Under the pieces are notes generated by a model. That model saw only the letters and a program-made list of their open reading frames with translations. It was not told the origin of the DNA and did no database searches. Shown here piece by piece: positions 1,009 through 44,800 of a DNA stretch of 64,000 bases. The first letter of the stretch is position 1. The number at the start of each line of letters is the position of its first letter. The stretch is from NCBI RefSeq assembly GCF_026626665.1, contig NZ_JAPNKE010000002.1, positions 3,629,168-3,693,167 of the forward strand. The letters are read 5' to 3'. Source of the stretch: Nannocystis pusilla. GTDB taxonomy: Bacteria > Myxococcota_A > Polyangia > Nannocystales > Nannocystaceae. Made by a program: the position numbers and the translations under genes.

Positions 1009-1077
1009 GGCCGCGAGGACATGCGCGAAAGACCTGTCCAGGCGGACATGCCCTTACGGGCGGGCGAGGATGGCGAG

Positions 1078-3881: not shown

Positions 3882-4073
3882 CCACGCCCGGTCGCCCTCG
3901 ACCGCCGCGGCCCCGCCCGCCTCGCGCTCGCTCCCCTGCCACGCGGTGGTCGCCGGCACACCCGCCCCGCGCTCGCCCGCCGCGGCCCCGGCCCGGTTGT
4001 CCTCCGGGACATGTCCCCTCGTACCTGCCTGATGAGCCATGGCCGATCGAACCTGTCCTCTCGCGCAGCCCGG

Positions 4074-4853
4074 TCAGCGGCCGGCCGGCAGCGCCGGGCG
4101 GCGCAGGCGGCGGTAGAGGTTGACCCATGGGCGCACCATCACCCGCTGGAACGACAGCCGGGTGTGCAGCCACGAGATCTTGACGTTGTCGCCGAACACG
4201 CGGAAGTGCGACACCCCGCCCTCGTCGCGGCCGATGTAGCGGACCCGGGTCGGCAGGTTTATCACCGGCACCCCGGCCCACACCAGGCGGACCGCGATCT
4301 CGATGTCGAAGTCCATGCGGTCGCCGGTGCGCCCGAGCGCCAGCGCGGGCGCCAGCGGGTACACGCGGAAGCCGCACATCGGGTCGGTGATGACCCCGCG
4401 CCCCGCCTCGAAGTTGGTCCAGAACAGCGTGATCTTGCGGGCGACGAGCCGCCCCTTCGGCGCCGACGCGTCGTATAGCGGCGCCCCGAGGACGAGCGCC
4501 TCCGGCCGCTCGCGCGCGGTGGCGAGGAATGCGGGATGTCCCCCAGGTCATGTTGCCCGTCGGCGTCGACCTGCAGCGCGTGGGTGTAGCCGAGCTCGTG
4601 GGCGAACTGGAACCCGGTCTTGACCGCCGCCCCCTTGCCGCCGTTGTGCGGCCGCCGCCGCACGTGCGCCAGCCCCTCCGCCCCGATCGCCTCGACCGCG
4701 GCGCGGCCCTCCGGCCCCGAGCCGTCGTCGATGACCACCACGTCGGGCAGGTGCGCCTTGACCCGCAGCACCACGTCCCGCACCGTCCGCGGATTATCGA
4801 AGGTCGGGATCAGCGCGCACGGCCGGAACGCCGCGGCTTCACCTGTCCCTCGA
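4074..4853 (-). CDS. family-2 glycosyltransferase (ApeJ-like); frame break near 4533 in a C-run
   Basis: N-part ..CALIPTFDNP..VVVIDDGSG..VDADGQHDLGDIP (DxD) then -1 shift to ..AFLATARERPEALVLGAPLYD..MCGFRVYPLA.. Confidence 0.65.
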
Positions 4854-4984
4854 GACACGTCCTGGCCCCTCTCAGCGCTCACGCTCGCCTCCCGCCGCCG
4901 GCCGCACCCGGCCCGCCGCCCGGCGGACGACCTGTCCTCCCGGACATCTGGCAACGACCTGCCCCTTCGGCCATACGCACCGCC

Positions 4985-5290: not shown

Positions 5291-5514
5291 CGCCGCCCCG
5301 CCCTCGTCGCGCCGCGTATGCCCGCGCAGCGCGAACGCCGACGCGCCCGGGCCCTCTGTCCCCGCGGACATGTCCCTGGGGCCACTCACCGGCGCTCCCG
5401 GGCCACCTGCCCCTGCGGACATGTCCCGTGAGCCACCCAGTCCCGCTCCCGCGCTGGGCGCGTCACTCGCCGAACTCACGGACATGTCCCTCGGGCCACC
5501 CGGCGCACTCTCCT

Positions 5515-10754: not shown

Positions 10755-10788
10755 GCCGCTGGCTCCGAGGGCGTGTCCTCTCGGACAG

Positions 10789-11060
10789 GTCTTCGCGCGC
10801 ATGTCCTGGCGCATGTCCTGGCGCGCATGCCCTGGCGCGCATGTCCTGGCGCGCATGTCCTCGCGCGCATGTCCTCGCGCCCATGTCCTGGCGCCCATGT
10901 CCTCGCGCGTATGCCCTGGCGCCCATGTCCTCGCACGCATGTCCTCGCGCATGCCCTCGCACGCACGTCCCCGCGCATGTCCTCGCGCGCATGCCCTCGC
11001 ACGCACGTCCCCGCGCATGTCCTCGCGCGCATGTCCTCGCGCGCATGTCCTCGCAGACAC
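10789..11060. repeat. tandem array of ~18 copies of a 15-bp unit GCGCATGTCCTSGCG
   Basis: read directly: gcgcgcatgtcctggcgcgcatgtcctcgcgc.. continuous; intergenic. Confidence 0.85.
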
Positions 11061-11345: not shown

Positions 11346-11377
11346 TGTCAAGCAAAGCTGCCACCCCTGAGGCGCGC

Positions 11378-12027: not shown

Positions 12028-12029
12028 CG

Positions 12030-12295
12030 GCCGCACGCACATGTCCCTCGGGACAGTATTCTCGCGTGCCGAGGTCGTCGCCACGAACCGCCCGCCCCAC
12101 CACGACCACATGTCCCTTCGGACAGTATCATCGCGTGCCGAGATCGTCGCCGCGAACCGCCCGGCCCGCCACGCGCACCTGTCCCTTCGGACATTTTTCT
12201 CACGATACCGAGCTCGTCATGTCGCACCGCTCGGCCCGTCGCACGCACCTGTCCCTTCGGACATTCTCGTCACTGCACCGCGATCGTCACCTCGA
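12030..12295. repeat. ~4 tandem copies of a ~65-70-bp unit each containing CACATGTCCCTTCGGACAGTAT hairpin
   Basis: direct reading; intergenic between XRE gene and convergent lipoprotein gene. Confidence 0.8.
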
Positions 12296-12892
12296 ACGGC
12301 CCGCTCTTGCGCGTGCCCGTGACCGTCCAGCGGTCGAGCGTGCGCAGCTGCGAGTACGCGCGCAGCAACGCCTCCATGTCCCCCACCGCTTGCCCGGCCA
12401 CGGTGCGCACCAGGTCCCCATTTTAAAACCCAGCAGCGCCAGCGGCGACTCGGAGCGGATTGCGAACAGCTTGAAGCCGACCGCCTTGCCGTCCTCCATC
12501 GCCGGGAGCACGCGCGCCAGCCGGGCCATCGCCTCGGGCGCCGCCATGAACGCCTCGAGCTCGCTGCGCTTCACCACGCAGGTCCCCTCGGCGCACGTCG
12601 GCGACAGCGTCGGCGTCGCCTCTCCTGCCGGCGGAGCGTCCGTCGCCGGCGCTGGCGGAGCGTCACCGGCCCCACCGGGCGGAGACCGGTCGATCTCGCA
12701 CAGGACCCGATCGGCCCGCGCCTTCGCCAGCTCGCTCGTCAGCGACTCGATCCGCTGGCCCTGCTCCTTGACCAGCGCCGACGTCGCCGCCAGCTCCGCC
12801 CGCACCGCCGCCAGCTCCCTCTCCTTCGCCGGGTCGCAACCGCCCAGCAGCAGCCCCAGCAACATCCACGCGCCGATCCATCGTCCCGACAT
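12269..12892 (-). CDS. lipoprotein with coiled-coil and PDZ/GspC-like C-terminal domain; frame break at the TTTTAAAA motif (12421-12428)
   Basis: MSGRWIGAWMLLGLLLGGC lipobox; C-terminal ..GDLVRTVAGQAVGDMEALLRAYSQL..FEVTIAVQ in a different frame from body. Confidence 0.45.
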
Positions 12893-13036: not shown

Positions 13037-13252
13037 GTGACCTTGCCCGCCGAGCCCCGCGAGCCGTTGCTCCTGGCCCTCCGCCGCGCCGACCCGCTCG
13101 CCTTTCGCCGCGAGGTCCGGGCGGTCCTGGCGGCCCAGTGCAGCGTGAGCGCCGGCGCCCGCGCCCTCGGCGTGCGCGAGGCGACCTTGCGCGATCTGCT
13201 GGCCGGCGACGCCGAGCTGGCCCGCGGCCTCGACCTCGACGACTGGCCCTGA
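13037..13252 (+). CDS. small hypothetical protein with possible HTH
   Basis: 71 aa ORF; weak. Confidence 0.3.
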   Translation: MTLPAEPREPLLLALRRADPLAFRREVRAVLAAQCSVSAGARALGVREATLRDLLAGDAELARGLDLDDWP

Positions 13253-13455
13253 GGACAGCTTTCTTAAGTACGTGGAGTGTGGGCTCCGCCACCATCGATC
13301 AGCCGCGGGACGCAGCTCGCCAGCTCGACGCCTACCGTCCCCGAGGCGCGCGCTGCCGGTTCGGACATGACTCTAGAATCATGTCCCTCAAAACATGTCC
13401 ATCACGCCATGTCGCCCCCATGACAGCGCCCCCGCCGCGTGCCAGACTCGCCGCG

Positions 13456-14559: not shown

Positions 14560-14832
14560 CCCGACACGCAGCCTGAGCCCGCCGCGTCGCGCCGGCCGCC
14601 TGCCCCTTCGCTCATGTCCGAAGCGCCAGCTCACCGTCGCGTCGGCGCGAGACCCACGCCCGGCGCCGAACATCCGGGCTCCGGCGCTCCGCCTCACGCT
14701 CGCACCGGGCGAAAGCCTGTCCCGAAGGGCAGGCGCCGGCTCAGCCCTTGCGCCGGCGCGCCCGGACCACGCAGCGGGCCGCGCGCTGCGGGCGGAACAG
14801 CGTCCTCGCCAGCGCCCACACCCCCTCGGCGG

Positions 14833-17447
14833 TCACCGCCGCCACGCGCTGCGGGTACGCGAACGCGCGCGCGGCAGCCCGTAGACCTCGGACAGCGCCA
14901 GCAGCGACGCCATCCGGCTGCGGCGCTGCTGGCCGAGCTCGAACTGCCCGACCAGCCACGCCTTGGCGCGCTCGACCTCCGCCGTCGACGGCGGCTCTCG
15001 CACCGCGCGCTCGACCTCCGCCGCGATCGCGGCCATCGCCTTCGGCAGCTTGTCCTGGCTGGTCGACGCGTGGATCGCCACGTGGCCGGCGTCGAGGCCC
15101 TCGACGCTGCTCATCGACACCTCGTACACCAGCCCCTGGACCTCGCGCAGCGCCGTGAACAGCCGCCCGGTCTGGCCGCCGAGCACCGCGCTGAGCACGT
15201 CGAGGGTCGGCTCGCGCTCGTCGCCGACGGCGATGCCCGGCCAGCCGAGGGCGATGTGGGCCTGCTCGCGGTCCTGGAAGATCTCCCGCTCGCGCGGCCC
15301 GGTCGGCGCCGCGAACTTCTTCGGCGCTCCTGGCCCTTCAGACAGCCTGTCCCCGAGGCCAGCCTCGCGCAGCGCCGCCTCGACCTGGGCCGCCGCCGCC
15401 GCCACGTCGATGTCGCCGGCCAGGGCCAGCACCGCCTGCCCGATCGGGTAGTCGCGGCGCCACAGCCCGCGCAGCTTGGCCGGCGTCAGCGCCCGCAGGC
15501 CGGCCGGCGTGCCGCGGCCCGGTCGGCTGAACGGGTGCTCGCCGTACAGCAGCGCGTTGAGCCCGCGGCTGGCCACCGCGCCGGGGTCGTCGACCTCGGC
15601 CGCCAGATCTTGCAGCGCCACCCGCCGCTCCTCCTCGAGCTCGTCGGCCGCGAACTTCGGCGTCGTCGCGCAGTCGAGCGCGTGCCCGAGCACCGCCGGG
15701 AAGTGGCGGCTCAGGCACTCGAAGTGCAGGCCCAGGCTGTTGCGGCCGGCGAAGCCGTCGAGCCCCGCGGCCATCCCGTCGATCGCCCGGCTCAGCGCCT
15801 CGCCGCCGGTGCGGGCGTTGCCGCGGGTCAGCAGCGCCGCGATCACCGAGTTCGCGCCGGCCAGCGCCGCCGGCTCGCGCCGCAGCCCGCCCGGCCAGAT
15901 CAGCCAGCCCGCCGCCACCGGCACCGCCGGCTCGACCCGCGCCAGCAGGCGCAGCCCGCACGCCAGGGTCACCGTCTCGATGCCGTCGCTGGCGCAGCGC
16001 GGCCTCACCCCGGCGCGCCCCGGCGTCGCCGCCGGCTTCAGCGCCTCGGCCACCGCGGCCTTGATCGACCTGGCCTTCGGGACATCCACCTCCGCGCGCG
16101 GCAGCTCGAGGCTGACGCTCGCGCGCGCCGGGTCGAGCCAGCGCGCGCAGGCCGAGCGGACCGCCTCGGGCGTCAGCGCCGCCAGGGCCGCGTAGTACTC
16201 GCGCTCGCGGGCCAGGTCGCCGAACAGCGTCGCGCAGGCCCCGAGCGCGTGCGCCTGGCCCTGCACCGTCTCGCGCCGGTACACCAGGTCGCTCTCGAGG
16301 ATCGCCTTGGCCCGCGCCAGCTCCTCGGCCGACACCGGCGCGTCCGCCAGGCGCCGCACCTGGGCCAGCACCGCCGCCACCGCCGCCGCCGTCTGGCCCG
16401 CGGTCGTGCGCGCCGACACCATCACCGTCCCGCCGTGGCGCAGCGTGTCGCAGTGGGCCTGGATGTCCGAAACGACCTGTTCTTTGCGACGTGTCTCGGC
16501 GACCAGGCGCGACGACTCGCCGTTGCCGAGCACCACCGCCGCCGCGTCGATCGCCGCCGCCTCGGCCGCGCCCGCCGCCGGGGCCGGCCAGGCCAGCAGC
16601 GCGTAGGTCTCCTGGACCTCGGCGCGGCGCAGCGTCACCCCGGCTTCGCCGCCGGCTCGCCCGCCGTCGCGCGCCTCTTGGCCGCCGGCAACGCGCCGAC
16701 GATCGCCCGCGCCACCTTGCGCAGCGCCGCCACGTCGACCGCGCCGACCGCCACCAGAGTCAGCCGCTCGCCGGCATAGGCGCGCCGGTGATACCCGCGC
16801 AGCCGCGCCGCCGAGTGCCCCGCGACCTCCTCCACCAGGCCGAGCACCGGCCGCGCGTACGCGTGCGCTCCGTACACCCGCGACAGCGCCGCCTGCGTCA
16901 CCCGCTGGCCCGGGTCGTCGTCGTACTGCTTGATCTCCTCGATCACCACCTCGCGCTCCTGCCCCAGCGTGGCCGGGTCGAGCGTCGGGAACAGCGTCGC
17001 GGTGGCCACCAGCGCCGCCGCCTCGGCCGCGCGGGCCGCCGGCGTCGTCACGTGGACCACCGTCTCGTCGTGGCTGGTGAACGCGTTGATGTCGCCGCCG
17101 AGCGCCTCGATCGCGCCCGCCAGGTCGAACGCCTCCTCGGCCCGCCGCACCCCGGCCGCCGCCAGGCGCGCGCGGTTGCTCTTCGGGCCATGTCCCAAAA
17201 CACATGGCTTGAAGAGCATGTGCTCGAGCAGGTGGGCGCAGCCGTGCTCGTCCTCTCGCTCGGCCGCCGTGCCCGAACCGACCCACAGCTGCACCGCCGC
17301 CGGCCCGGCCCCGGCCGGTCGCCCGGGCAGGATCAGCAGGCGGGCGCCGTTGGCCAGCCGCTCGTCGACGAGCGGCGCGAATTGAGTGGCGGCGCCGGGG
17401 AGATCGAGGCCGCGGGGCGAAGGAGGCGAGACGGGCAGATCGGGCAC
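14833..17447 (-). CDS. M16-family zinc peptidase, tandem active + inactive halves (pitrilysin-like); frame break near 16640
   Basis: HLLEHMLFK (HxxEH) in N-half (ORF 16635..17447), remainder in ORF 14833..17514 from GVTLRRAEVQETYALLAWP onward. Confidence 0.7.
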
Positions 17448-17842: not shown

Positions 17843-18214
17843 GTGCTCTCTCCGACGCTCGCGTTGCGCTGCCCGCATTGCCAGCACGCGCTCTCGCTCG
17901 CCGACCTCCGCGACGCCGCCGACTGCCCCGCCTGCCGGCAGCCCCACGGCTTGCCGCCGGCCGTCGCCGACGCGCTGGCCCTCTACGAGCGGGCGATCCA
18001 GCAGGCCGTCAGCGACCTGGTCCACAGCGCACCTGTCCCGAAGGTCAGCCCCGAACCCGACGCCGAGATCCCGCCGCCGAGCCCTCGGCTCCACGCGCGT
18101 CACCAGCCCGGCCCTCGGCCAGGCTGCTCGCCGCGCCCGTCCCGCCGACCACCCTGCTCTCGATCGGCCCGGCCCCGCCGCCCGCCGTCCCGACCCCCAT
18201 GCGACCTGTCCTGA
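17843..18214 (+). CDS. zinc-ribbon protein (CPHC..CPAC); may be N-terminus of a longer repeat-containing membrane protein ending 19838
   Basis: CxxC-N17-CxxC; downstream frames remain coding-like through repeat region. Confidence 0.4.
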   Translation: MLSPTLALRCPHCQHALSLADLRDAADCPACRQPHGLPPAVADALALYERAIQQAVSDLVHSAPVPKVSPEPDAEIPPPSPRLHARHQPGPRPGCSPRPSRRPPCSRSARPRRPPSRPPCDLS

Positions 18215-18379
18215 GGGACAGCAACGCTCCGCTCGCCGCCCCCGAGCCCGGCGACACCCTGGAGGGCCCCGCCCCGGCCGCTGGACCGACGCCCGCCCCG
18301 GCACCCAGGCGGCCGAGCTGGCCGCGGGCCTGCCCGCCCACGGGCACGACGCCGCGCCGGAGCCGGCCCAGCTGTCCCT

Positions 18380-18700
18380 GCCCGTCGACGCGCCTGTCCC
18401 TGCGGACAGCCTCCACCAACCTGCCCTCGCGGACAGCCCCCGGCCACCTGTCCCCATGGACAGCCATGACCTCGACCGCGCGGCCACGCGCTCCCCACCT
18501 GTCCCCACGGACAGCCGTGCCCCCGACCGCGCGGCCACGCGCTCCTCGCCTGTCCCCACGGACAGCCGTGACCTCGACCGCGCGCCCACGCGCTCCCCGC
18601 CTGTCCCCACGGACAGCCGGCCATCATCTGTCCCTTCGGACAGCCACCTCGCCGCCCTCCGCGCCTCCTCGTCACCTGTCCCTGCAGACAGCTCACCCGC
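18380..18700. repeat. cluster of ~9 CCTGTCCC-N2-4-GGACAGC palindromes, ~50-bp period, in-frame encoding PPVPTDSRDLDRAATRS-like repeats
   Basis: read directly from sequence. Confidence 0.75.
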
Positions 18701-18860
18701 CGCGCCGGGCCTCCGCACCGCGGTCGCTCCCGGCTTCGACCCCGCCGCGCTGTCCGGCCCCTTGCCCGCCCCGCGCGAGCAGGTACCTGGCCTCGGGGCC
18801 AGCCTCGCCCGCGACCCGGCCGCGCGCACGGCCGCCGGCGACACCCTCCCGGGCGCCGCG

Positions 18861-19838
18861 ATGAGCCCCTCGAACTCCTCGCTCCTGGCGATCCTCTCCA
18901 ACCGCTCCGGCGCCAGCCTCAGCACCCCCTCGGCCACGGCGGGGCTCGCGGCCCCGCCCGGCGGTCTGGCCGAGGCGCCGCTGGTGGTCGCCGCCGTGCG
19001 CGAGCCCGCCGACAGCCCCGCCTCGCCCGCGACCCGGGACCTGATCGCCGCCGTCCGCTCCTTCCTCCCCGATCGCCCCGACCTCGCCGGCCCCGAGCCG
19101 GAGGGCCGGATCCCCGCCAGCGCCCTCGCGGTCGCCCGCCGCGCCCTCCTGGCCCGCCACGCCGACGAGCGGCGCCAGCAACAGGTCCGCGACGGCGGCC
19201 TCGGCCTCCTGTTCGCCGCCATCGTCTGCGGCGGGCTGCTGCTGTTCGGCCTGTGGTACGCCGCCATCGCCATCGCCGTCCTCGCCATCCTCCTGCGCCT
19301 GCGCCGGGAGGAGCGCGGCGAGCGGTTCGGCGCCGAGGTCCAGCGTCTGGGCGACGCGCTCGGCGGCCAGCGCCTCCCCAGCTACGACGCCATCGCCGCG
19401 TGGTTCGACCGCCTGTGGCCCGCGCCCGTCAGCCCCGAGGCGATGTGGACCAGCCACTTGCACGGGGCGGTCCGCTGCGACGTACACGGCTACCCCGCGC
19501 TGGTCGACGTCCACCTGAACGAAAAGACAGCCGGCGGCGTCGTCTACCCGCCGCGGATCACCGCCTACCTCGCCGCCCTCTGGCCCGGCCGCGTGCCCTC
19601 CCTGCGCATCACCGCCACCGACCTCACCCCCGCCGCCCAGGCCCGGCTCGCCCGCCTGCGCAAGGCCGGCTACACCGTCGTCGCCGACGCCAACGGCGGC
19701 CTCATCATGCGCGCCAGCGAGTCGATCGCCCAGGCCGCGCGGGCCGACATCACCCGTCTGCCCGCGCTGCAGGTCCCGATCGGCGAGCTCGCCGACCTCG
19801 CCCGCGACCTCGGGGCCGAGCCCGTCCCCGCCTCCTAG
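18861..19838 (+). CDS. membrane protein (1-2 TM) with C-terminal soluble domain; N-terminus may extend upstream into Pro-rich repeats
   Basis: LGLLFAAIVCGGLLLFGLWYAAIAIAVLAILL TM; stop 19838. Confidence 0.5.
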   Translation: MSPSNSSLLAILSNRSGASLSTPSATAGLAAPPGGLAEAPLVVAAVREPADSPASPATRDLIAAVRSFLPDRPDLAGPEPEGRIPASALAVARRALLARHADERRQQQVRDGGLGLLFAAIVCGGLLLFGLWYAAIAIAVLAILLRLRREERGERFGAEVQRLGDALGGQRLPSYDAIAAWFDRLWPAPVSPEAMWTSHLHGAVRCDVHGYPALVDVHLNEKTAGGVVYPPRITAYLAALWPGRVPSLRITATDLTPAAQARLARLRKAGYTVVADANGGLIMRASESIAQAARADITRLPALQVPIGELADLARDLGAEPVPAS

Positions 19839-19842
19839 CGCC

Positions 19843-20268
19843 GTGTCGGTCACGCGTGAACACGCGACCACGTCCGCCCGGTGTCCCCAGTGCGGCACCG
19901 GCGTGACCGTGCATCACACCGTCGCCCGCCGCGACGACGGGGTCCGCTGGTCCACCGCGATCCGCTGCCTCGCCTGCGGCCTCTCGCTCGAGTCGGACAG
20001 CAACGCCGGCGACTCGGCCGCGCGAGCGGCCGTCCTCGCCACCAACGGCTCGTGGATCGTCCGCCTCACCAGCCTCGGCCCGCGACCGATCCGCGTCCTG
20101 CAGGCCCTCCGCGACATGCTGGGCCTCTCGCCGGCCGTCGCCCGCACGCGCCTCGACGCCCTCGCGCAGGGCACCCGCGTCGAGATGGAGGCCCTGCTGG
20201 CCAAGTTCGTCCGCGAGGGCGCCGAGGGCACCTGCGTCCGCGTCGAACCGACCTCCGGCCCGCGCTGA
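19843..20268 (+). CDS. zinc-ribbon protein with ribosomal L7/L12 C-terminal-like domain
   Basis: CPQC..CLAC; C-terminus ..LGLSPAVARTRLDALAQGTRVEMEALLAKFVREGAEG resembles L7/L12 CTD. Confidence 0.5.
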   Translation: MSVTREHATTSARCPQCGTGVTVHHTVARRDDGVRWSTAIRCLACGLSLESDSNAGDSAARAAVLATNGSWIVRLTSLGPRPIRVLQALRDMLGLSPAVARTRLDALAQGTRVEMEALLAKFVREGAEGTCVRVEPTSGPR

Positions 20269-20448
20269 CCGACCACGCCGACCCTCCCCGCGGAGCAACG
20301 CGACTCTCCCCGTGCAGCGCCGCCGATGCATCCATTGCATCGAGGACCTCTCACCGCCTCGCGTCGCGCGTGGAGACCTCCGCGGCGCGCTCCGCCGCGA
20401 GCGTTGCCGCGCCGCCGAATCGCCCGCGCCTTTTGGTTATGCTCGCAG

Positions 20449-21212
20449 CATGGTTTCGTTGCGAGACAAGGTCGCGCTGATCGTCGGCGGCAATCGGGCA
20501 TCGGCAAGGCCACCGCCTTCGCCTTCGCCGACGCCGGGGCCAGGGTCGTGGTCGCCGCGCGTCGCCGGGCCGAGGGGCAGGGCGTCGTCGAGCAGCTGCG
20601 CGCCCGCGGCACCCCGGCGATCTTCGTCCCTCTCGACGTCACCGTCGAGGACGACATCGTCGCCGGCGTCGCCGCCACCGTCGCCGAGTTCGGCCGCCTC
20701 GACTGCGCCGTCAACTCCGCCGGGATCTGCGAGGACTTCGGCCCCGTCACCGACGTCGACGGCGCCGCCTTCGATCGCATGATGGCCGTCAACGTCCGCG
20801 GCACCCTGCTCGGCATGAAGCACCAGCTGAAGCAGATGGTCGCCCAGGGCGGCGGCGGCAGCATCGTCAACGTCGCCTCGATCCTCCTCACGTCGGCACC
20901 CCCACCGGTTCGGCCTACGTCGCCACCAAGCACGCCGTCCTCGGCATCACCCGCTCGGCCGCCCTCGGCCACGCCAAGCAGGGCATCCGCGTCAACTGTG
21001 TCGCCCCGACCGCCATCACCGGCACGCCGATGGTCGACAACGCTCTGGCGAACTTCCCCGCCGTCATGGAGCCCGTCATCTCCGCCATCCCGATGGGCCG
21101 CCCCGGCCGCGCCGACGAGGTGGGCCGCGCGATCGCCTGGCTCAGCAGCGACGACGCCGCCTTCATCTCCGGCCACTCGCTGGCGATCGACGGCGCCCAG
21201 CTCGCCATGTGA
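20449..21212 (+). CDS. SDR-family oxidoreductase; two frame breaks (~20490, ~20900)
   Basis: MVSLRDKVALIVGGNR-GIGKATAFAFADAGARVVVAAR.., NSAGI, ..YVATKHAVLGITRSAALGHAKQGIRVNCVAPTAI.. spread over three frames. Confidence 0.7.
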
Positions 21213-21299
21213 GCGCCGCCCCGACGCCAGCCATCTGTCTCGTCGGCCACGTCCGATAAGACATGTCCTATCGGACATATCCTCCCGCTCTGCCGCGCC

Positions 21300-22431
21300 T
21301 CACTTCGGCTGCAGCTCGCGGAGCCGCTCCTCCAGCTCCGCCTTCAGCTCCGGGTCCGTCGCCTTGGCGATCTGCTGCTCGATCAGCTTGACCTGGACCA
21401 CCCGCAGCGCGTCCTCGGCCGGCACTGCGATGTCGGGTTGCACGCCCACCCTCCCAGTTCGTCTTCGAGATCGGGTTTATCGCCCGGCCCGTCGGCACGA
21501 ACGCCCTGAAGTGGTCGCCGAGGCGCACCATGTCGCCCGGGTTCGCCCCGCCCCACGTCACCTCGCCGACGATCGTCGCCCGCTTCAAGTTCTTCAGGTT
21601 GTACGCGAACTCCTCCGCCGCCGACCCCGTGCGCGGGCTCGTCAGCACGTAGACCTCGCGGCCCACGTAGGACTTGCCCGGCACCGGCGCCGTCCAGAAC
21701 TGGCGCGTCTCGTCGGCTGGCCGAAAGTACAGGTCGTTCAGGTGGACCCGCTCGTCGAACAGATAGCTGCACAGGTACGCCACCATCTCCGGCGACCCGC
21801 CTCCGTTGCGGCGCAGGTCGACGATCAGCGCGTCGGTCTCCGCCAGGAACGCCATCGCCGCCGACGCCGCCTCGAACCCGCGGCCGGGGAACGCGAACCC
21901 GCGGACTTCCAGGTAGCCGATGTTGCCGGGCAGCCGCTCGACCTTCTCGAACCCGCCGTTCATGCGGCGCGAGAAGTCCTCGAAGCGGGCCAGCTCCTCG
22001 GCCGACGGCTTCCCCTCGGTCTCCTGCGGCGGCAGCGTCTCCTTGCTGAAGCGGACGTGGAAGTGCGCGTCGCGCAGCACCTCGTTGATGTCGTTCGTCA
22101 GCGTCGTCGCCAGCGCGTGGCCCGTCGTGATCTTGTCGTACTCGCCGCGCTTGCGGCGGGCGCGGATCGCCCTGGCCACCTCGTTCGCCTTGTCCGGGAA
22201 CACGTACTTCGCCGTCAGCGCGCGCGCCAACGCCTCGACCGCCTCGTCGCGCTCCGCCGCCGTGATCGGCCCGTCCGGCCCTCTCGGCGGCGGCGCCTTC
22301 GGCACCGCCATCTGCGGTCCGCCGGAGGTCGGCGGCGCCGCGTCCGGACTGGCCACCGCCGCCTTCGCGCAGCCGAGCGAATACAGGGTAGATAGCGCCA
22401 ACCAACCGCGGATCACTGTCGACAATCGCAT
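21300..22431 (-). CDS. S41-family (tail-specific/C-terminal processing) peptidase lipoprotein; frame break ~21435 in G-run
   Basis: lipobox LYSLGC; GYLEVRGFA, DLRRNGGGSPEMV, TGSAAEEFAYNLKNL; C-terminus ..VGVQPDIAVPAEDALRVVQVKL..ELQPK in shifted frame. Confidence 0.7.
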
Positions 22432-22452
22432 CTTCGCCTCACCTCTTTGTCT

Positions 22453-23138: not shown

Positions 23139-23165
23139 CGTTCACCGTCGATGCAGCATTGCACA

Positions 23166-23186
23166 CGGCGACGACTTTGTGCAAGC
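23166..23186. promoter_or_regulatory. TetR operator-like inverted repeat TGTGCAA-N7-TTGCACA
   Basis: perfect 7-bp arms immediately upstream of TetR gene, with a degenerate second copy ~30 bp away. Confidence 0.45.
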
Positions 23187-27114: not shown

Positions 27115-27166
27115 GCAGCCCGGGGCCGAGGCGATGTCTCGAGCCCCGCCCCGCGGCCGTGTCCTC

Positions 27167-30712: not shown

Positions 30713-31990
30713 ATGTCGCGCTGCCTGTCTCTGGCCCTGGTCTTCGCCCTCGCCGCCCCGCCCGCGGCCGCCCACCCGCTGGCGCGCACCCCCGACCCGG
30801 GCGCCTGGCAGCCCGCCGGACCCTCGGGACATGTCTCGGATGACATGCCCGAGAGGACACCCTCACGGACCCTCCCGCCGGCTGCTCCGGCGTCCGCCTC
30901 CGCCAACCTGTCCCCAAGAACATCCCCCCTGGCCGCGTCCCCAGGGTCAGTCCGCATGACCACGGCCGCGCCCGTCAACCTGTCCCTACGGGCAGCCGAT
31001 CCGCCCTCGCCTACCCCGCCGTCCCCTCTCGACGAAACACCCTCGGGGACAGCCGACCCGGCCGCCACCGACAACCTGTCCCCGGGGACGCCCGCCCCTG
31101 CCCCGCCTCGCCCCACCTCAAGTGTCCCGGGAGACATGTCTTCCGGGACATCTCCCCCACCGAGCCCGTTCGCCTCGCTCCCGCCGCCGATCCGCCGCTC
31201 CCGCCCGCCCCGCCGGCCCTCCCGCCGCACCTCATGCGCCTGCGGCCGGCCGTCGACGTCCCCGTCATCGCCCTCGGCCTCGTCATGTGGCTAGGCACCG
31301 ATCTCGCGGCCCGCGACATGCGGTGGTCCGGCTGTCAGGCCTGTGATCGCAGCCACATCAACGGCCTCGATCGGCGCGTCCTCGGCAACGAGAGCCTCGC
31401 GGCCGCCCACGCCTCCGACGCCCTGCTCTACACCGCGATCGCCGCTCCGATCGTCGCCGACCTCGCCGACACCCTCCTCGCCGGCCGCCGCGCCCCGGCT
31501 CCTACCGTCACGCCGCCGGCGGCTGGGCCCGCGACGTGGTCGTCCTGTTCGAGGTCCTCGCCGTCAACGTCGGCCTCAACAACCTCGTCAAGTACGCCGT
31601 GCGCCGCCCGCGGCCCTACAGCTACGAGCCCGAGAGCGAGCTCGGCGACGTCCAGGCCGAGGAGTCGCGCCTGTCCTTTATTCAGGTCACACCTCGACCG
31701 CTTTCGCCATGATGAGCGCCTGGGCCACCCTCTTCACCCTGCGTCACCCGCGGGCCCGCGCCGCCGTCCCGGCCTGGCTGCTCGCCGTCGGCCTCGGCGC
31801 CACCACCGGCGTCCTGCGCGTCGAGGCCGGCAAGCACTTCTGGACCGACGTCCTGTTCGGCTCCGTCGCCGGCACCGCCATCGGCGTCCTCGTTCCGCTG
31901 CTCCACCGCAACGATCGCGGCCGCCGCTTCTCCGCCGGCATGAGCCCCACCCCGCGCGGCGCCCTCGTCAGCCTCACCGGCCGCTTCTGA
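30713..31990 (+). CDS. PAP2-family phosphatase with signal peptide and N-terminal Pro/Ser-rich repeat region; two frame breaks (~31500, ~31680 in T-run)
   Basis: KYAVRRPRPY (KxxxxxxRP), SGHTS, ..RVEAGKHFWTDV (SRxxxxxHxxxD) PAP2 motifs across three frames. Confidence 0.65.
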
Positions 31991-38800: not shown

Positions 38801-41800
38801 CGGTTCATGCGCGAGGAGCCCGACGACGGCGAGGGCCTCAAGATCCTCGGCGAGCTGCAGGCCCTGGCCGGCGATCACCAGGCCACCCTCGACACCCTCG
38901 GCAAGCGCCTCGAGAGCCTCACCGACGCCGCCCAGCAGGTCGTCACCCTCGAGCAGATGGCCGAGGTGTGCGAGTTCGGGCTCGGCCACGCCAAACGGGC
39001 GCTCGCGCTGCTCGGGCGGGCCCTCGGCATCGCCCCCGGCAGCCGCGACCTCAAGCAGAAGATCGAGGCGTTCGCCGAGCGCCACGGCATGTACAAGGAC
39101 CTGCTCGTCGTCTACGGCGAGCGCTTCACCGAGATGAGCGGCCGGGCCGAGAGCCGCGGCCAGATCGACCTGTGCCTCGGCGCCTCGGCCACCGCCGAGA
39201 AGAAGATCGGCGACCCCGACCTCGCCTTCGCCTGGGCGCGCAAGGCCTACTTCGTGGCCCTGCGCGCCGGCCTCGACGCCGGCCCGGTGCAAGGCCGCCT
39301 CGAGGGCCTGGCCCAGGCCCACGGCCTGTGGCCGCAGATGCTCGACGTCAGCGAGCAGGAGCTCGCCTTCCAGGAGAAGACCCCCAACTACGGCGACTAC
39401 GGCACCATCGCCCTGTTGATGTCGGCCGCCGAGATCGCCCGCGAGCGCCTCGGCGACCCCGCGCGCGCGATCGGCTACCTGCAGCGCGCCTACAAGCTGC
39501 GCCCCGACGACGACGACCTCGGGCGCCAGATCGAGGCCCTCGGCGAGGCCCACCAGATGTGGCAGGCGCTGATCGACCTGCAGGAGCTGCGGCTCGGCCG
39601 CGCCAAGACCGGCCTCGGCCGCTTCGACGCCTGCGTCGCCATCGCCAAGATCTACGAGCGCCACCTGAGCGACCCGAAGCGCGCCTTCCAGTGGCTGCGC
39701 CGGGCCGAGACCGACCTGCGCCCCGCCGACCCCTCGCTCGCCGAGGAGGCCGCCGGCCTGATGACCGAGCTGGCCCAGCGCCATCAACTGTGGCCCGAGC
39801 TCGCCGATCACCACCGCGGCCTCGCCCTCGCCAAGCTGCAGCGCAACGAGCGCGGCGGCCTCAATCAGCTCAAGGACTCGGCGCGCATCGACTACGAGAA
39901 GCGCCAGGACCCGCTCGCGTCCCTGCGCACCCTCCGGCTCGGCGTCGCCTACGACCGCGACGGCACCGCGCTGATGCCCGCGATCGAGGCGATGGCCGCC
40001 AAGGTCGACGAGAAGCGCAGCCCCGACACCCCGCCGACCGGCGCGCTCACCCTGCTCTCGGTCACCCAGCAGATCATCGGCCAGACCGTCGACCCCGCGG
40101 TCAAGCTGTCGCTGCTCAAGCGCCGCGCCGAGCTGCGCGCCGGCCTCGGCGACACCGCCGGCGCGATCGCCGAGTGGCTGCGCGCCCTCTCGCTCCACCC
40201 CGGCAGCGAGGAGGCCCGCTTCGAGCTCGACCGCCTGGCCGAGCGCGACAACCTGTGGCACCTGCTCCTGCTCGCGCCCGCGAGCGAGCTGCACTTCGGG
40301 ACAGGCAAGGCCCAGCAGGGCAAGCTCCTGACCCAGATCGCCGAGCTCTACGAGAACTGCCTCGGCCGGCCCGAGTACGCGCTCAGGGCCCGGATCGCCG
40401 CCTGGAAGCTGCAGGGCGACCTGCCCCCCGAGACAGGTGACCTCGGGCCCGTCCACAGCAAGATGTGGCACCTCGCCAGCCTGACCGGCACCTACACCGC
40501 CCCGCCGCCGGCCCGCGACCCGCTGCTGTGGCCGCAGATCGTCCCGCCCGAGCTGGCCGACCGCGACCAGTGGCGCAAGCTCGGCCTCGACCCCGACACC
40601 CTGGCCCCGCGCATGCCCGTCAAGCCGCGCGCCACCAACAAGGAGGAGTCGAGCGTGATGGAGCTCGACGACCTCGAGGAGGTGTCGCGCCCGACCGCCG
40701 AGATCCAGCTGTCCGAGCTCGAGCCGCTCGAGGAGCTGCGGCGCGGCGGCGGCAAGGAGGTCGTCGCCCGCCCGGGCAAGACCGTCCGCAGCGAGACGCA
40801 CACCAACATCGTCGACCTCGCCGACCTCGAGCCCGTCGAGCTGTCGGCCACGGCGGTCAAGATCCGCGCCCCGCGGCCGGCCCGCGGCGAGACCGACATC
40901 GTCGACATCGCCGACCTCGAGGCCGTCGAGGCCTCGGGCTCCGTCAGCGTGCGCGCGGCCGGCCTCCCCCGTCAGGAGTCCGGCGTATTCGACCTCGCCG
41001 ACCTCGAGCCGATCGAGGACAGCCTGGTCGGCCCGGCGCCGAAGCGCCCGAGCGCCGAGGTCTCGGGCGTGCTCGACCTCGACGAGATGCTCGAGCTCGA
41101 CGACGACGCCCCGCGGCCCACCTCGCACAAGCGCTCGCTGCCGCGGCCCGCCGCCAAGCCGCGGGGGCCGAACCCGCCGCTCAAGCCGGCCCCGCCGCGC
41201 CCGCCGGGCGGCAAGCCGGTCGCCAAGGCCCCGCCGCCGGCGCGCCGCCCTGCCGCTCCGCCGCCGCCCTCGCGCCCGCCCGAGCCTGTCCCCGCGGCCA
41301 GCGTGCCGCCGCCGCCCCCGGTCGCCAGCCGCGAGCTCATCGACGCCGTCACCGCCGGCCTGCCGGCCCTGCCCGAGCTCGACGCCCCGGTCCTGCCCGG
41401 CCGCCCGTCCGCCAGCTCTGCCTGGCACGAGCTGGCCCATGCCTACGCCTCGGTGGTCCCCGCCAGCAAGTCCGAGCGCGCCGGCCTGCAGCGCCTGCTC
41501 GCCCGCCTGTGGGACGAGGGCGCCGGCATGCCCGACGCCGCCCTCGAGCGCTACGAGGAGGCCCTCGCCCTGGTGCCCGACGACGCGGTCGCCCTCTCGG
41601 GCCTCGTCCACATGGCCGAAAGGACAGCCGACCCCGAGCGCCTGATCGCCGCGCTGTCGCGCCTGCTGTCCGACCTCACCCTGCCCGAGCACATCGTCGC
41701 CTATCACCTGCGCCTCGCCGACCTGTACGAACAGACAGCTCAGCCCGAGCGCGCCGAGGAGCAGTACCGCGGCGTGCTCGCCGTCTCGCCGAAGCACCTG

Positions 41801-44800
41801 GGCGCGCTGCGCAGCCTGGCCGCGCTGCACGCCAAGACCGGCCGCGAGCGCGAGGCCGCCGAGGCCTCGGCGCGCCTCTACGACGTCGAGGCCGACGGCC
41901 TCCCGCTGGAGGAGCGGATCCCCCGCGTCCTGCAGCTCGCGCGCGACCTCGCCTACCGCGCCGACCGCTCGCTCGAGGCCATCCGCCGCCTCGAGGCGCT
42001 GGTCAAGGAGACCCCCGAGACCGCCGACGTCCACGCCGAGCTGATCGAGATCCTCCAGCGCGAGGGCCTGTGGGTCCGCGCCGTCGAGGCCCTGCGCGCC
42101 GCCGCCGAGGTCGTGCCCAACCCCGACGCCCGCGTGCGCTGCCTGGCCCGCGCCGCCACCCTCACCGAGGAGCGCCTCGGCCAGCCCGACGCCGCGATCG
42201 CCGGCTGGTCCGAGGTCCTCGACCACAACCCCGGCGACCCCGACGCCCTGGTGCGCCTGCAGAGCCTCTACCTGCGCACCGAGCAGTACGCCAAGCTGCT
42301 GCCGATCCTCGACCGCCGCCTGGCCCAGGTCGCGCCCGGCGACCGCGACGCCCGCATCGCCCTCCTCGTCGTCAAGGCCCGCGCCCTGCAAGAGGGCCAG
42401 GGCGACGAGGCCGCCGCGCTCGAGACCCTCGAGACCCTCGCCGCCGAGGCCCCCGAGAACGACGACGTCGTGCTCGGCCTGTCCCGCCTCTACCGCAAGG
42501 GCGGGCGCATGGACGACGGCGTCGAGATGCTGCGCCGGCGCCTGGCCGAGATCGTCAGCGACATGGAGGTCCGCGTCGAGCCGCTCGACGAGGAGCCGCT
42601 GCCGTTCGACATCCCCGAGCCGGTCTCGCCGGCGCTGGCGGCCCGCCGCGTGCGGATCGCCGAGGCCCTGGCGACCGCCCTGGCCGAAGAGGCAGGTGAC
42701 CCCCGCGGCGCGCTCGAGACCCTCGACGAGGCGCTCGCCGCCGCCCCGCCCGACGCCGCGCTCGGCCTGCAGCGGCGCCGCGTCGCCCTCGCGCGGACCC
42801 TCGGCGACGACCGGGCCCTCACCGTCAGCCTCGCCGCCGTCGGCGAGCCCGACGGCATCCTCGAGGCCGCCGCGATCGCCCGCGACCGCCTGCACGAGCC
42901 CGAGCTGGCCGCCCATGTACACCCGCGTCCTCGCCGAGCTGGCCCCCGGCGCCCCGCAGCGCAGCCGCCGGCTGTCGCAGGCGATCGAGGGCCTGGTCGG
43001 CCTGCGCCTGGCCGCCGGCGACCTCGACGGCGCCGACGCCCTGCTCGACGCCCAGCTGGCCCAGATCGACGACCCCGAGATCCGCGCCCGGATCCTCACC
43101 GAGAGCGGCCGCGCCCTGCTGCGCGGCGGCCAGGAGCTCGCGCGCGCCCGCCAGCGCTTCGAGGCCGCCCTCGCCGCCGACCCCGACCACGCGCCCGCGC
43201 GCCTGGCCCTCGGCGCGGCCCTCATCGACGCCGGCCTGCACGCCGAGGCCGAGGCCATCCTCGAGGCCGCGGTCGAGGCGTTCGGCCTCACCCGCGACCA
43301 GCCGCGCCTGGTCGAGGGCCTCTTGATGCTGGCCCACCTGTTCGAACAGACCGACCGCGCCAACGAGGCCTACCGCCGCCTCTCGATGGCCCTGCGCCAC
43401 GTCCCCGACGACCTCGAGATCCGCGCCGCCATGGCCCACAACCGCGCCGCCGCCGGCCGCCACCGCGACGCCGTCGCCGCCCTCGAGCCGGTCGAGCAGC
43501 GCCTCGCCGCCGGCACCCCGGTCCCGCCCGAGCGCGCCCCCGTGGTCGCCGACCTGCTGATCCTCGCCGCCGAGTGCGACGCCAAGCAGAACGCCCCCGC
43601 CGAGCGCCTCGCCGCCCGCTACGCCCGCGCCCTCGAGCTGGCCCCGCGCCACCGCAAGGCCCGCGCCGCGCTGGCTCAGCTGGCCCAAGAGTCAGGCAGA
43701 CTGGTCGACGCCGCCGAGCACACCCTCGCCCTCGCCGACCTCGAGCAGGACCCCGAGGCCCGCGGCCGGGCCCTGCTCGCCGCCGGCATGCTGTTCCACG
43801 AGGCGGCCGGGGCCGCCGCCGAGACCGGCGAAGAGACCGTCGTCAGCGCCTCCGCGCAGAAGATCCTCGGCGCCGCCTTCGACGCCGTCCAGGCCGGCCT
43901 CGCCCTGATCCAGCACATCCCGCACCCGGTTCTCGACCGCCGCCAGCTCGAGGCCGCCTTCTGGACCGCCGTCTCGCGCAACGCCGGCATCGCCCTCGGC
44001 TGCCTCGACCGCCTGCTGCACCACCCCGACCTGCGCGAGGCCAAGCGGGCCGGCTTCCTGCTCGAGGGCGTCAAGATCGCCCTCCAGCGCGGCGAGCCCG
44101 GCGACCCCGAGCGCGCGCTCGCCTACGCCCGCGCCGCCGTCGAGCTGCTGCCCGACGCCGCCGCCCCGATCCACGGCCTCGTCGACGCCCTGCGGGCCTG
44201 TGGCACCGTCGAACAGATCGAGCCGGCGGTGGGCGCCTACCTGGCGCGCGACAGCGTCCAGAAGCCGCCTGGTGACCTGAGCGAGGCCCGCGATCGCCAG
44301 CGCCTGCTGGTCCGCCTGGCCGACCTCGTGGTCCAGGCCGAGCCCCCGCCTGACCCGAAGGACAGCCGGCCCGCGCAGGCGATCCGGCTGCTCGAGCGGG
44401 CCGCCGAGCTCGACCCCACCGGCCTCGGCCTGGCCCCGCGGCGCCAGCTCGCCCGGCTCTACGCCGACGAGAAGATCCAGGGCCCGCAGGTGCGCAGCAA
44501 CTCCGACGCCCTGCTCCACCTCGACCCGCTCGACGAGGCCAGCCTGGCCGCGCTCGCCCGCCACTGCGCCGAGAACGGCGAGGAGGGCCGCGCCCACGCC
44601 ATCCACCAGCTCTTGCGGATCGTCAGCCCCGGCCACGCCGAGGCCGGCGCCTTCCTCACCAGCCACGAGCTGCTGTCGGTGCGCGGCGGCAAGCTCGACC
44701 CCACCATGGTCATCGACCCGGCCCCCGCCGACGCCGGCGTGGTCCCGGCCCTCACCGCCCTGTGGGAGGGCGCCGCCGAGCTGTTGGCGGAGGAGCTGCC

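What the first reader, a model, noticed from the sequence alone, without database searches (positions are those of the whole stretch)
18380..18700. Dispersed palindromic motif family CTGTCCC-N(2-6)-GGGACAG (core GGACATGTCC) occurring in clusters, intergenic and in-frame inside ORFs
At least 40 copies are in the window. Examples: 1010-1060, 4840-4960, 5360-5500 (3 copies between ligase and dehydratase domains, encoding PRDMS), 18380-18700 (9 copies, encoding PVPTDS), 21260-21283 (hairpin between convergent genes), 30800-31160 (encoding xNLSP), 48290-48520, and the 15-bp array at 10789-11060. When intragenic the unit length keeps the frame. This looks like a REP/MITE-like element family or a frequently used protein-binding site, and it also generates low-complexity protein linkers.
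Basis: seen in the sequence. Interest (0 to 1): 0.6.

Follow-up and report, generated by a model that had tools for sequence, protein, structure and literature searches.

The report
Nannocystis-wide iterated interrupted palindrome motif
A 16-20 bp interrupted palindrome (ACCTGTCC-N4-GGACAGGT) is scattered about once every 4-6 kb through Nannocystis genomes only, between genes and in-frame inside floppy protein linkers, where it seeds fast-changing tandem arrays; it has the shape of a LuxR-type protein-binding site, but nothing shows what reads it.

Summary
The true unit is [C/A]TGnCC-N4-GGnCA[G/T], ideally ACCTGTCC-N4-GGACAGGT, with a strictly 4-bp spacer. The window holds 19 exact TGTCC-N4-GGACA sites (about 0.1 expected) and 54 sites with up to 2 mismatches (4.1 expected).

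It is not confined to the window. In a scan of 185,579 species genomes, 25 of 119 hit loci are Nannocystis or Nannocystaceae. Only those loci carry extra copies: 45 in 194 kb, against 1 in 700 kb elsewhere.

The focal copies at 18380-18700 are coding. They lie in the disordered linker of a zinc-ribbon membrane protein (PVPxDS). That gene looks broken only because the window has 1-nt homopolymer indels. Other copies sit in two more linkers, in different frames and on the other strand, and in intergenic minisatellites. All arrays change copy number between strains that are 95-98% identical.

It is not a MITE: nothing is conserved beyond about 20 bp. It is not a canonical REP, terminator or CRISPR. 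The apparent strand polarity matches the compositional baseline.

The pattern of invariant and free positions matches the CviR box and the lux box. I therefore favour a dimeric helix-turn-helix protein site that expands by replication slippage. The mechanism remains inferred.

The parts
18394..18691 (+). Focal cluster. Eight motif copies, including a 51-bp x3.5 tandem array at 18444-18619. They encode the PVPxDS repeats of the disordered linker of a zinc-ribbon/TM protein.
   Evidence: Homologues P0002 and P0004-6 have an N-terminal zinc ribbon, a PVPAD-containing linker and a conserved C-terminus. Alignment to L136-L138 shows an intact 619-631 aa ORF and 102-nt in-frame length differences.
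17843..19838 (+). Host gene of the focal cluster. Zinc ribbon at 17843-18022, linker at about 18023-18860, conserved TM/C-terminal domain to 19838. In the window it is interrupted by 1-nt deletions near 18111 and 18266.
   Evidence: tblastn of the P0002 N-terminus; alignment with L136/L137; gene calls in L136-L138.
18033..18221 (+). Two single copies in the same linker: 18033-18048 (CTGTCCcgaaGGTCAG) and 18206-18221 (CTGTCCtgagGGACAG). Both are conserved in place in three sister genomes.
5338..5490 (-). Three copies (51-bp unit) in the linker between the AMP-binding and ApeI/FabA dehydratase domains of gene 4985-6901. They are read on the minus strand as (G)xRDMSAGT. Strain L136 has an expanded 48-bp unit array, 138 nt longer.
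4843..4947 (.). Two copies (4843-4858 and 4932-4947) in the spacer and gene start between the ligase and glycosyltransferase genes of the same operon.
3997..4068 (.). Two copies at the glycosyltransferase/acyltransferase gene junction. This region is 165 bp in L136 against 91 bp in the window.
1034..1049 (.). Single intercistronic copy between the thioesterase and LolA-like genes. Arms are kept in four strains while the spacer and flanks differ.
10773..11054 (+). A palindrome 19 nt after a stop codon, followed by a 14-bp x20 array (CATGTCCTSGCGCG), which is a head-to-tail run of degenerate units. The region is 316 bp here against 154, 99 and 76 bp in sister strains.
12030..12303 (+). Intergenic 69-bp x4 minisatellite between convergent genes. 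Each unit carries [A/C]TGTCCCTTCGGACA[G/T]. Sister strains have 2 units.
13243..13258 (.). Single copy overlapping the stop codon of a 71-aa ORF (TGA lies in the spacer).
14717..14732 (.). Single intergenic copy. The mismatch sits in a different arm in strain L137.
21263..21278 (.). ATGTCCTATCGGACAT between convergent genes.
30908..31091 (+). Three copies in the post-signal-peptide linker of a PAP2-like membrane protein, read as NLSPxT. This is a different frame from the focal cluster.
   Evidence: The gene is intact in the same-strain contig L145.
48326..48590 (+). Intergenic 69-bp x3.7 minisatellite starting 2 nt after a stop codon. Its five units are of the full 20-bp form ACCTG[T/C]CC-N4-GGCCAGGT.
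41286..41301 (.). Single 1-mismatch copy inside the giant TPR protein gene.
44350..44365 (.). Single 1-mismatch copy near the end of the TPR gene region.
   Evidence: It is orthologous to a copy in L011.

Best explanation
What is shown:
- The motif is a genus-specific, highly iterated interrupted palindrome of Nannocystis. The ideal form is ACCTGTCC-N4-GGACAGGT and the constrained form is [C/A]TGnCC-N4-GGnCA[G/T].
- Exact 14-mers occur about once every 4-6 kb, roughly 2,000 per 12-Mb genome. Degenerate copies are several-fold more numerous.
- Copies sit wherever sequence is tolerant: short intercistronic spacers, the regions just after stop codons, and disordered protein linkers. They occur in any frame and on either strand.
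- They are embedded in tandem arrays with 14-, 48-, 51-, 69- and 78-bp units that gain and lose units between closely related strains. Inside genes these changes keep the reading frame.

What is inferred:
- The unit is most likely read as double-stranded DNA by a dimeric helix-turn-helix protein with LuxR/CviR-like geometry. The half-sites are one helical turn apart, with base-specific invariant positions and a free spacer.
- Array expansion and contraction are most likely replication slippage or unequal recombination between neighbouring copies.
For: Enrichment and strict spacing:
- 19 exact copies with N4 against 0-1 at all other spacings.
- 54 against 4.1 expected at up to 2 mismatches.
- ACCTG-N10-CAGGT at up to 1 mismatch: 15 against 1.1 expected.
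- 55-65% of all CTGTCC hexamers have a partner matching at least 4 of 6 bases at N4, against about 4% background.

Genus-wide and genus-specific:
- Additional copies: 45 in 194 kb there, 0 in 71 kb of other myxobacteria, 1 in 632 kb of other taxa.
- Loci not chosen for the motif also carry it.

Protein-site-like constraint:
- Arm positions 2, 3, 5 and 6 are invariant. Position 4 varies without compensation (T-A 58, T-C 16, compensated G-C 4 and C-G 2).
- The spacer has no consensus.
- Both half-sites share the flank pattern R-S-M.
- The constrained pattern equals the published CviR box CTGNCCNNNNGGNCAG. The CsuR site CTGTCCGATAGGACAG is an exact instance (PMC12114271).
- The outer hexamers equal those of the V. 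fischeri lux box ACCTGTAGGATCGTACAGGT.

Conservation: with independent ascertainment, arms diverge 3-7% between strains against 9-25% for flanks.

DNA-level rather than peptide-level or RNA-level:
- Three frames and both gene strands are used.
- Orientation is independent of the direction of transcription.

Copy-number variation.
Against: - No reader protein has been identified, and the LuxR-box resemblance could be coincidence.
- Thousands of sites, many inside coding linkers and in arrays of up to 9-20 units, is not how ordinary operators are distributed. Most copies are not at promoter distance.
- At single-copy sites the arm conservation is only about 2-fold and not significant (p = 0.07-0.2). 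In arrays the aligner may favour arm-to-arm matches.
- The outermost arm pair covaries (C-G or A-T, odds ratio 4-5). A hairpin model also predicts this.
- The DNA hairpin is real though weak (-5 kcal/mol, z about -3).
Confidence: 0.4

Rival explanations
1. REP-like element. The unit acts as a single-stranded DNA hairpin that is recognised and spread by a RAYT-type (Y1/HUH) transposase, as with REP/REPIN families.
For: - It is a short palindrome with hundreds to thousands of copies, and it is lineage-specific.
- It lies in intercistronic and post-stop-codon positions.
- The hairpin is more stable than shuffles.
- There is an 'AC' tag 5' of the stem, and the outermost pair covaries.
- The 69-bp unit at 12030 can extend into a longer imperfect hairpin.
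Against: - At least half the copies are intragenic.
- Neighbouring copies are direct repeats, never inverted doublets.
- The stem is only 6 bp and about -5 kcal/mol.
- Internal position 4 varies without compensation.
- The same motif is shared across all sampled Nannocystis species rather than forming species-specific classes.
- All 10 single-copy sites compared are shared by the four strains, so no recent insertions were seen.
- The presence of a RAYT gene was not tested.
Confidence: 0.2
2. No reader at all. The sequence is slippage-prone and spreads passively by tandem duplication, unequal crossing-over and gene conversion in tolerant DNA. The motif is then just the most successful seed of the genome's many minisatellites.
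For: - The window is full of minisatellites, including arrays without the motif (33143-33391, 45691-46010).
- Arrays change copy number between strains that are 95-98% identical.
- Copies concentrate in tolerant DNA.
- The right arm decays asymmetrically in line with strand mutation bias (GGACAG to GGCCAG).
Against: - Duplication explains arrays but not about 70 independent clusters at unlinked loci in several species that share only the 20-bp core.
- The strict N4 spacing and the position-specific invariance, together with slower arm divergence, point to sequence-specific maintenance.
Confidence: 0.2
3. RNA-level hairpin, acting as a transcription terminator or a 3'-end mRNA stabiliser.
For: Several copies lie 2-40 nt after stop codons or between convergent genes (10773, 12041, 21263, 48326, and L136 5896/13036/17020).
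Against: - Only one copy has a T tail.
- Many copies are inside ORFs.
- Flank asymmetry does not follow the direction of transcription.
- The stem is short, and there is no Rfam match.
Confidence: 0.08
4. DNA-uptake-signal-like 'self' mark that accumulates through biased uptake and recombination, as with DUS/USS.
For: - It is lineage-specific.
- It occurs in coding and non-coding DNA, in all frames, preferentially in poorly conserved protein segments and after stop codons as inverted repeats.
- It is sparse in the low-GC IS/integrase island at 51-60 kb and in low-GC loci L142/L143.
Against: - Its density is about 5-10 times lower than DUS/USS.
- Tandem arrays are not a DUS/USS feature.
- Competence has not been shown for Nannocystis, and nothing here tests uptake.
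Confidence: 0.06
5. Replichore-polar signal (KOPS/Chi-like), with GGGACAGG on the leading strand.
For: - CCTGTCCC is 21:1 on the C-rich strand in the window and 93:16 overall.
- Orientation flips with the sign of GC skew within a genome.
Against: - 8-mers of the same composition give a 0.71 baseline, and the cluster-level ratio is 66:21 (0.76), which is indistinguishable from it.
- The core is a palindrome.
- The two half-site profiles are alike except at one semi-degenerate S position.
Confidence: 0.04

Closest known systems
HIP1, the highly iterated palindrome GCGATCGC of cyanobacteria (PMC5861425)
   Same: Both are lineage-specific short palindromes, 15- to 300-fold or more over-represented. 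Both occur in coding and non-coding DNA in all frames, are apparently maintained rather than neutral, and have an unknown function.
   Different: HIP1 is a contiguous 8-bp palindrome with a GATC core, present about once per kb and not in arrays. Here the palindrome is interrupted (6-8 bp arms with a fixed 4-bp spacer), about 5 times sparser, and seeds variable tandem arrays.
LuxR-family operators: CviR/CsuR box CTGNCCNNNNGGNCAG and lux box ACCTGTAGGATCGTACAGGT
   Same: Identical dyad geometry and identical constrained positions. CTGTCCGATAGGACAG, the CsuR site, is an exact instance of the motif, and the outer ACCTGT/ACAGGT hexamers equal those of the lux box.
   Different: Those are a handful of promoter-proximal sites per genome. 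Here there are thousands of sites, mostly not promoter-proximal, many intragenic or in arrays. No cognate protein is known.
REP/BIME/REPIN elements with RAYT transposases
   Same: Abundant short palindromes in intercistronic and post-stop positions, specific to a lineage.
   Different: Half the copies are intragenic, neighbours are direct rather than inverted, the stem is very short, there is no GTAG tag, and no RAYT link has been tested.
MIRU-type intergenic minisatellites (VNTRs) of mycobacteria
   Same: Tandem units of 50-80 bp in intergenic spacers of operons, with copy number varying between strains (12030, 48361, L092 6657-7400).
   Different: Here the arrays at different loci share only a 20-bp palindromic core. 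The same core also occurs singly and inside genes.
Rickettsia palindromic elements (RPE)
   Same: Palindromic repeats found in-frame inside protein-coding genes as well as between genes.
   Different: RPEs are 100-150 bp mobile-element-like insertions with a conserved body. Here the conserved unit is about 20 bp.

Membership tests
REP/REPIN (RAYT-associated) | Imperfect palindrome of 20-40 nt preceded by a conserved GTAG-type 5' tetranucleotide | tested here: not met
   6-bp arms with a 4-nt spacer. The 5' flank is R-S-M (consensus A-C-C) and is mirrored on the other side. No GTAG.
REP/REPIN (RAYT-associated) | Predominantly extragenic location | tested here: not met
   37 of 46 copies with up to 1 mismatch lie inside called genes in 127 kb. 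In the window at least 13 copies are in coding linkers.
REP/REPIN (RAYT-associated) | Inverted doublets (REPIN/BIME organisation) | tested here: not met
   Arrays are head-to-tail direct repeats.
REP/REPIN (RAYT-associated) | A Y1-transposase (RAYT) gene flanked by the repeats | not tested
   Whole Nannocystis genomes could not be scanned for PF01797 with the calls available.
MITE | Conserved body of roughly 100-400 bp bounded by terminal inverted repeats and target-site duplications | tested here: not met
   All-against-all comparison of 58-nt flanks on each side of 124 copies with the core masked: the only matches between loci are neighbouring cores or orthologues. Flank profiles are at background beyond +/-3.
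Highly iterated palindrome (HIP1-like) | Short palindrome hyper-abundant relative to composition, lineage-specific, in coding and non-coding DNA | tested here: met
Highly iterated palindrome (HIP1-like) | Sites conserved between related genomes more than neighbouring sequence | tested here: inconclusive
   Arms diverge 3-7% against flanks 9-25%. The effect is only 2-fold and not significant at single-copy sites.
Highly iterated palindrome (HIP1-like) | Contiguous 8-bp palindrome containing a methylation site (GATC) | tested here: not met
   The palindrome is interrupted and the spacer is unconstrained.
LuxR-type operator (lux/CviR box) | 16-20 bp dyad CTG-N10-CAG, specifically CTGNCCNNNNGGNCAG | tested here: met
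   The pair table shows positions 2, 3, 5 and 6 fixed and position 4 free. Published consensus in PMC12114271. ACCTG-N10-CAGGT: 15 against 1.1 expected.
LuxR-type operator (lux/CviR box) | Promoter-proximal position in a small regulon | tested here: not met
   Most copies are intragenic, downstream of stop codons, or in arrays.
LuxR-type operator (lux/CviR box) | Bound by a cognate LuxR-family dimer | not testable with these tools
   Needs DAP-seq, EMSA or ChIP.
Intrinsic terminator | GC-rich stem followed by a T tract | tested here: not met
   In 10-22 kb only the copy at 12180 qualifies, and the total number of terminator-like sites is no more than in shuffles.
CRISPR array | Conserved repeats separated by unique spacers | tested here: not met
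   Whole 51- and 69-bp units repeat at 77-92% identity.
KOPS/Chi-type polar octamer | Strand bias relative to replication beyond what composition gives | tested here: not met
   0.76 at cluster level against a 0.71 baseline from same-composition 8-mers.
MIRU-like VNTR minisatellite | Tandem 40-100 bp intergenic units with copy number polymorphic between strains | tested here: met
   12028-12310 is 283 bp against 127-137 bp. 10755-11070 is 316 bp against 76-154 bp. L092 has a 78-bp x9 array.

The most novel reading that the evidence does not exclude
Nannocystis maintains thousands of copies of one LuxR-box-like palindrome under purifying selection, even inside protein-coding linkers. A dedicated abundant dimeric DNA-binding protein would use them as a genome-wide signal for nucleoid organisation or for marking DNA as 'self'. 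The same sites would drive rapid length variation of protein linkers and intergenic spacers.
Probability: 0.2. Interest if true: 0.7.

Novelty: new variant of a known kind. Interest (0 to 1): 0.45.

Why it matters
- Hyper-abundant lineage-specific motifs such as HIP1, REP and uptake sequences remain poorly understood. This one has an unusually informative architecture, matching a known class of protein-binding site. That makes a search for its reader directly testable by DAP-seq or pull-down in a culturable genus.
- It shows a DNA-level motif shaping proteins. The same 16-20 bp is translated in three ways into disordered linkers whose length differs between strains.
- It gives a ready set of variable tandem-repeat markers for typing Nannocystis strains.
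- It is a simple sequence signature for assigning metagenomic contigs to the genus.
- It carries a practical warning. In this 72% GC long-read assembly, homopolymer indels break real genes around these repeats.

Tried and rejected
1. Replichore polarity (KOPS/Chi-like). This looked striking at first: 21:1 in the window, flipping with GC skew in other loci. It dissolved against a control of same-composition 8-mers (baseline 0.71; clusters 66:21). The two half-site profiles are also alike. The residual oddity is that no exact site has both ACC and GGT flanks (0 against about 4.7 expected; p = 0.03 after de-duplication). Degenerate full 20-mers do exist at 48324-48590.
2. MITE. No conserved body beyond the core.
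3. Sampling the source genome through its IS110 transposase. Only metagenomic contigs of 3 kb or less were returned. A homologue in N. exedens (P0009) did give four loci not chosen for the motif.
4. IS110 targeting of the motif. Junctions do not split a motif, although 3 of 4 right flanks have CATGTC within 25 bp.
5. The exact 14-mers inside the IS110 and IS3 transposase genes. The IS110 one encodes the conserved DVHKDS peptide and is probably coincidental.
6. Rfam: no family matches in the window.
7. Terminator scan: not terminators.
8. Viral-contig scan for a two-unit pattern: one hit, uninformative.
9. Literature searches for a Nannocystis or myxobacterial repeat of this kind found nothing.
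10. Compensatory covariation in the stem. It is absent at position 4 and present only at the outermost pair.
11. Peptide-level explanation. Rejected because three frames and both strands are used.

Full report
OBSERVATION

The window is 72% GC with negative GC skew throughout. At 18380-18700 the sequence shows repeated CTGTCC-N4-GGACAG units.

A spacing scan shows what the real unit is. TGTCC followed by GGACA occurs 19 times with exactly 4 intervening bases and 0-1 times at every other spacing from 0 to 30. It is the most frequent 5+4+5 palindrome in the window.

With up to two mismatches, CTGTCCNNNNGGACAG occurs 54 times against 4.1 +/- 2.0 in dinucleotide-preserving shuffles. It is the junction where one unit abuts the next. 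The array at 10774-11054 is a 14-bp head-to-tail run of degenerate units.

SOURCE AND QUALITY OF THE WINDOW

Protein homologues are from Nannocystis. A Logan contig (ERR2215891) is 99.9% identical to the window. Three NCBI genomes are 95-98% identical and syntenic over 1-19 kb.

Alignment shows that the window lacks single bases in G/C homopolymers near 18111 and 18266. In strains L136 and L137 the gene is an intact 620-630 aa ORF. The same-strain contig differs from the window by 3 gaps in 4.4 kb, and these gaps restore a PAP2-like gene. The M16 peptidase is likewise split in the window. The apparent frameshifts are therefore most likely assembly errors.

WHAT THE FOCAL REGION IS

Homologues of the downstream protein have three parts: a conserved N-terminal zinc ribbon (MLSPTLALRCxQC...), a proline-rich low-complexity linker that itself contains PVPAD(S) motifs, and a conserved TM/C-terminal domain. 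In the window the zinc ribbon is at 17843-18022.

The repeats at 18394-18691 are therefore coding and are read as PVPxDS. The 51-bp unit is 17 codons. The window has 102 nt more than L136 in this array.

TWO OTHER CODING CLUSTERS

- One lies in the linker between the AMP-ligase and ApeI-dehydratase domains of a minus-strand gene. It is read as RDMSAGT, and L136 has five 48-bp units there.
- The other lies in the post-signal-peptide linker of the PAP2-like protein. It is read as NLSPxT.

Three different readings of one DNA motif show that the conserved entity is the DNA, not a peptide.

INTERGENIC COPIES

These lie in short intercistronic spacers (1034, 4932), just after stop codons (10773, 48326), and between convergent genes (12030-12303, 21263). 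Only one copy has a T tail, and Rfam finds nothing.

GENOME-WIDE AND GENUS-SPECIFIC DISTRIBUTION

Of these, 25 are Nannocystis or Nannocystaceae (N. exedens, punicea, radixulma, bainbridge, RBIL2 and MAGs). The rest are single hits in unrelated taxa.

Beyond the copy that brought each locus in, exact 14-mers number:
- 45 in 194 kb of Nannocystis
- 0 in 71 kb of other myxobacteria
- 1 in 632 kb of everything else

Loci not chosen for the motif carry it too (L011 and L014; four N. exedens loci). This gives roughly one exact copy per 4-6 kb. Low-GC island-like stretches are poorer in the motif.

ANATOMY

In 375 kb of Nannocystis sequence, 55-65% of all CTGTCC hexamers have a partner matching at least 4 of 6 bases at N4. 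The background is about 4%.

The pair-by-pair table shows:
- arm positions 2, 3, 5 and 6 are invariant
- position 4 is free and uncompensated (T-A 58, T-C 16, G-C 4, C-G 2)
- position 1 is C-G or A-T

The spacer has no consensus. With one site taken per cluster, both half-sites show the same flank, R-S-M, giving the ideal 20-mer ACCTGTCC-N4-GGACAGGT. ACCTG-N10-CAGGT is itself 13-fold enriched.

Nothing beyond about 20 bp is shared between loci. As DNA the hairpin is weak, at -5 kcal/mol.

DYNAMICS

All arrays differ in length between strains that are 95-98% identical:
- 171 bp against 309, 180 and 171 bp
- 316 bp against 154, 99 and 76 bp
- 283 bp against 127-137 bp
- 531 bp against 396-430 bp

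Single copies stay in place. Two-thirds of neighbour spacings are multiples of 3.

With sites ascertained in one genome and divergence measured between two others, arms diverge 3-7% against 9-25% for flanks. At single-copy sites the effect is 2-fold and not significant. The right arm on the C-rich strand decays more often (GGACAG to GGCCAG), in line with strand mutation bias.

POLARITY

CCTGTCCC is 21:1 on the plus strand, and its orientation follows GC skew in other loci. However, 8-mers of the same composition show a 0.71 bias, and the cluster-level ratio is 0.76. I therefore do not claim a replication-polar signal.

COMPARISON WITH KNOWN SYSTEMS

The constrained pattern equals the published CviR box CTGNCCNNNNGGNCAG. 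The CsuR site CTGTCCGATAGGACAG is an exact instance of the motif (PMC12114271). The outer hexamers equal those of the lux box ACCTGTAGGATCGTACAGGT.

In abundance and distribution the closest analogue is cyanobacterial HIP1 (PMC5861425). In array behaviour it resembles MIRU-type VNTRs, and in coding occupancy it resembles Rickettsia RPEs. It fails the tests for MITE, canonical REP, terminator, CRISPR and KOPS/Chi. I found no description of it in the searchable literature.

VERDICT

The finding is real, genus-wide and apparently undescribed, but it belongs to a familiar class of lineage-specific iterated palindromes.

- Shown: enrichment, strict geometry, genus specificity, coding occupancy in several frames, and copy-number variation between strains.
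- Inferred: recognition by a dimeric helix-turn-helix protein and expansion by slippage.
- Untested: which protein reads it, and whether a RAYT transposase is present.

Noticed in passing
window ~18111, ~18266, 16635-16638, 30.7-31.5 kb, ~42.9 kb: The window carries 1-nt homopolymer indels relative to sister genomes and to a same-strain short-read contig (3 gaps in 4.4 kb). They split real genes: the zinc-ribbon protein, the M16 peptidase (270+601 aa), the PAP2-like protein, and probably the giant TPR protein. This is typical of an unpolished long-read assembly.
   Followed up: partly
window 1-8800 (minus strand): An aryl-polyene/flexirubin-like lipid gene cluster: ACP, AMP-ligase fused to an ApeI dehydratase, GT2, lipid A-type acyltransferase, aromatic ammonia-lyase, 4HBT thioesterase, LolA-like, MMPL, and an adjacent SDR. 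It is conserved in sister genomes.
   Followed up: partly
window 33143-33391, 45691-46010, 54070-54473: Further minisatellites (52 bp x4.8, 58 bp x5.7, 147 bp x2.7) that do not obviously contain the motif. The genome is generally rich in tandem arrays.
   Followed up: no
window 11297-11355: A perfect 18-bp palindrome TGTCAAGCTAGCTTGACA and a second TTGACA-N3-TGTCAA overlap the only sigma-70-like promoter match. They lie upstream of a small membrane protein and XRE-family HTH operon, and are a likely operator for that regulator.
   Followed up: no
window 51400-60000: A lower-GC (0.655-0.685) island with a split phage-type integrase, an IS3-family element (54543-56062) and an IS110-family element (57408-58631). 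Motif copies here are found only inside the transposase genes.
   Followed up: partly
L140-L143 (N. exedens), IS110 right junctions at locus position ~11315: Three of four IS110 copies have CATGTC(C/T) within 10-25 bp of the right end. The junctions themselves do not split a motif. This may be a weak target preference or chance.
   Followed up: partly
window 19838-36740 versus L011: In the more distant relative L011 the giant TPR gene follows the zinc-ribbon gene directly. The window has about 17 kb of extra genes between them.
   Followed up: no
L092 2400-2590 and 6657-7400 (N. punicea, 7.34 Mb): A TonB-dependent-receptor-like gene has a PAPSTS linker built from the degenerate variant CCTGCCCCTTCGACCAGC. 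The spacer between an ExbD-like gene and the downstream (possibly TonB-like) ORF holds a 78-bp x9 minisatellite carrying CACCTGTCCCTCGGGMCAGCC. Gene identities here were judged by reading the sequence, not by a domain search.
   Followed up: partly
window 46200-47400, 49500-51400, 62556-64000: Myxobacterial cysteine-rich repeat proteins (93-99 bp DNA periodicity) and a TPR-like protein with a 144-bp periodic repeat running off the end of the window.
   Followed up: no
all exact sites: No exact TGTCC-N4-GGACA site carries both the ACC and GGT flanks (0 observed, about 4.7 expected). Degenerate sites at 48324-48590 do carry both. It is not clear whether perfect 20-bp palindromes are avoided.
   Followed up: partly
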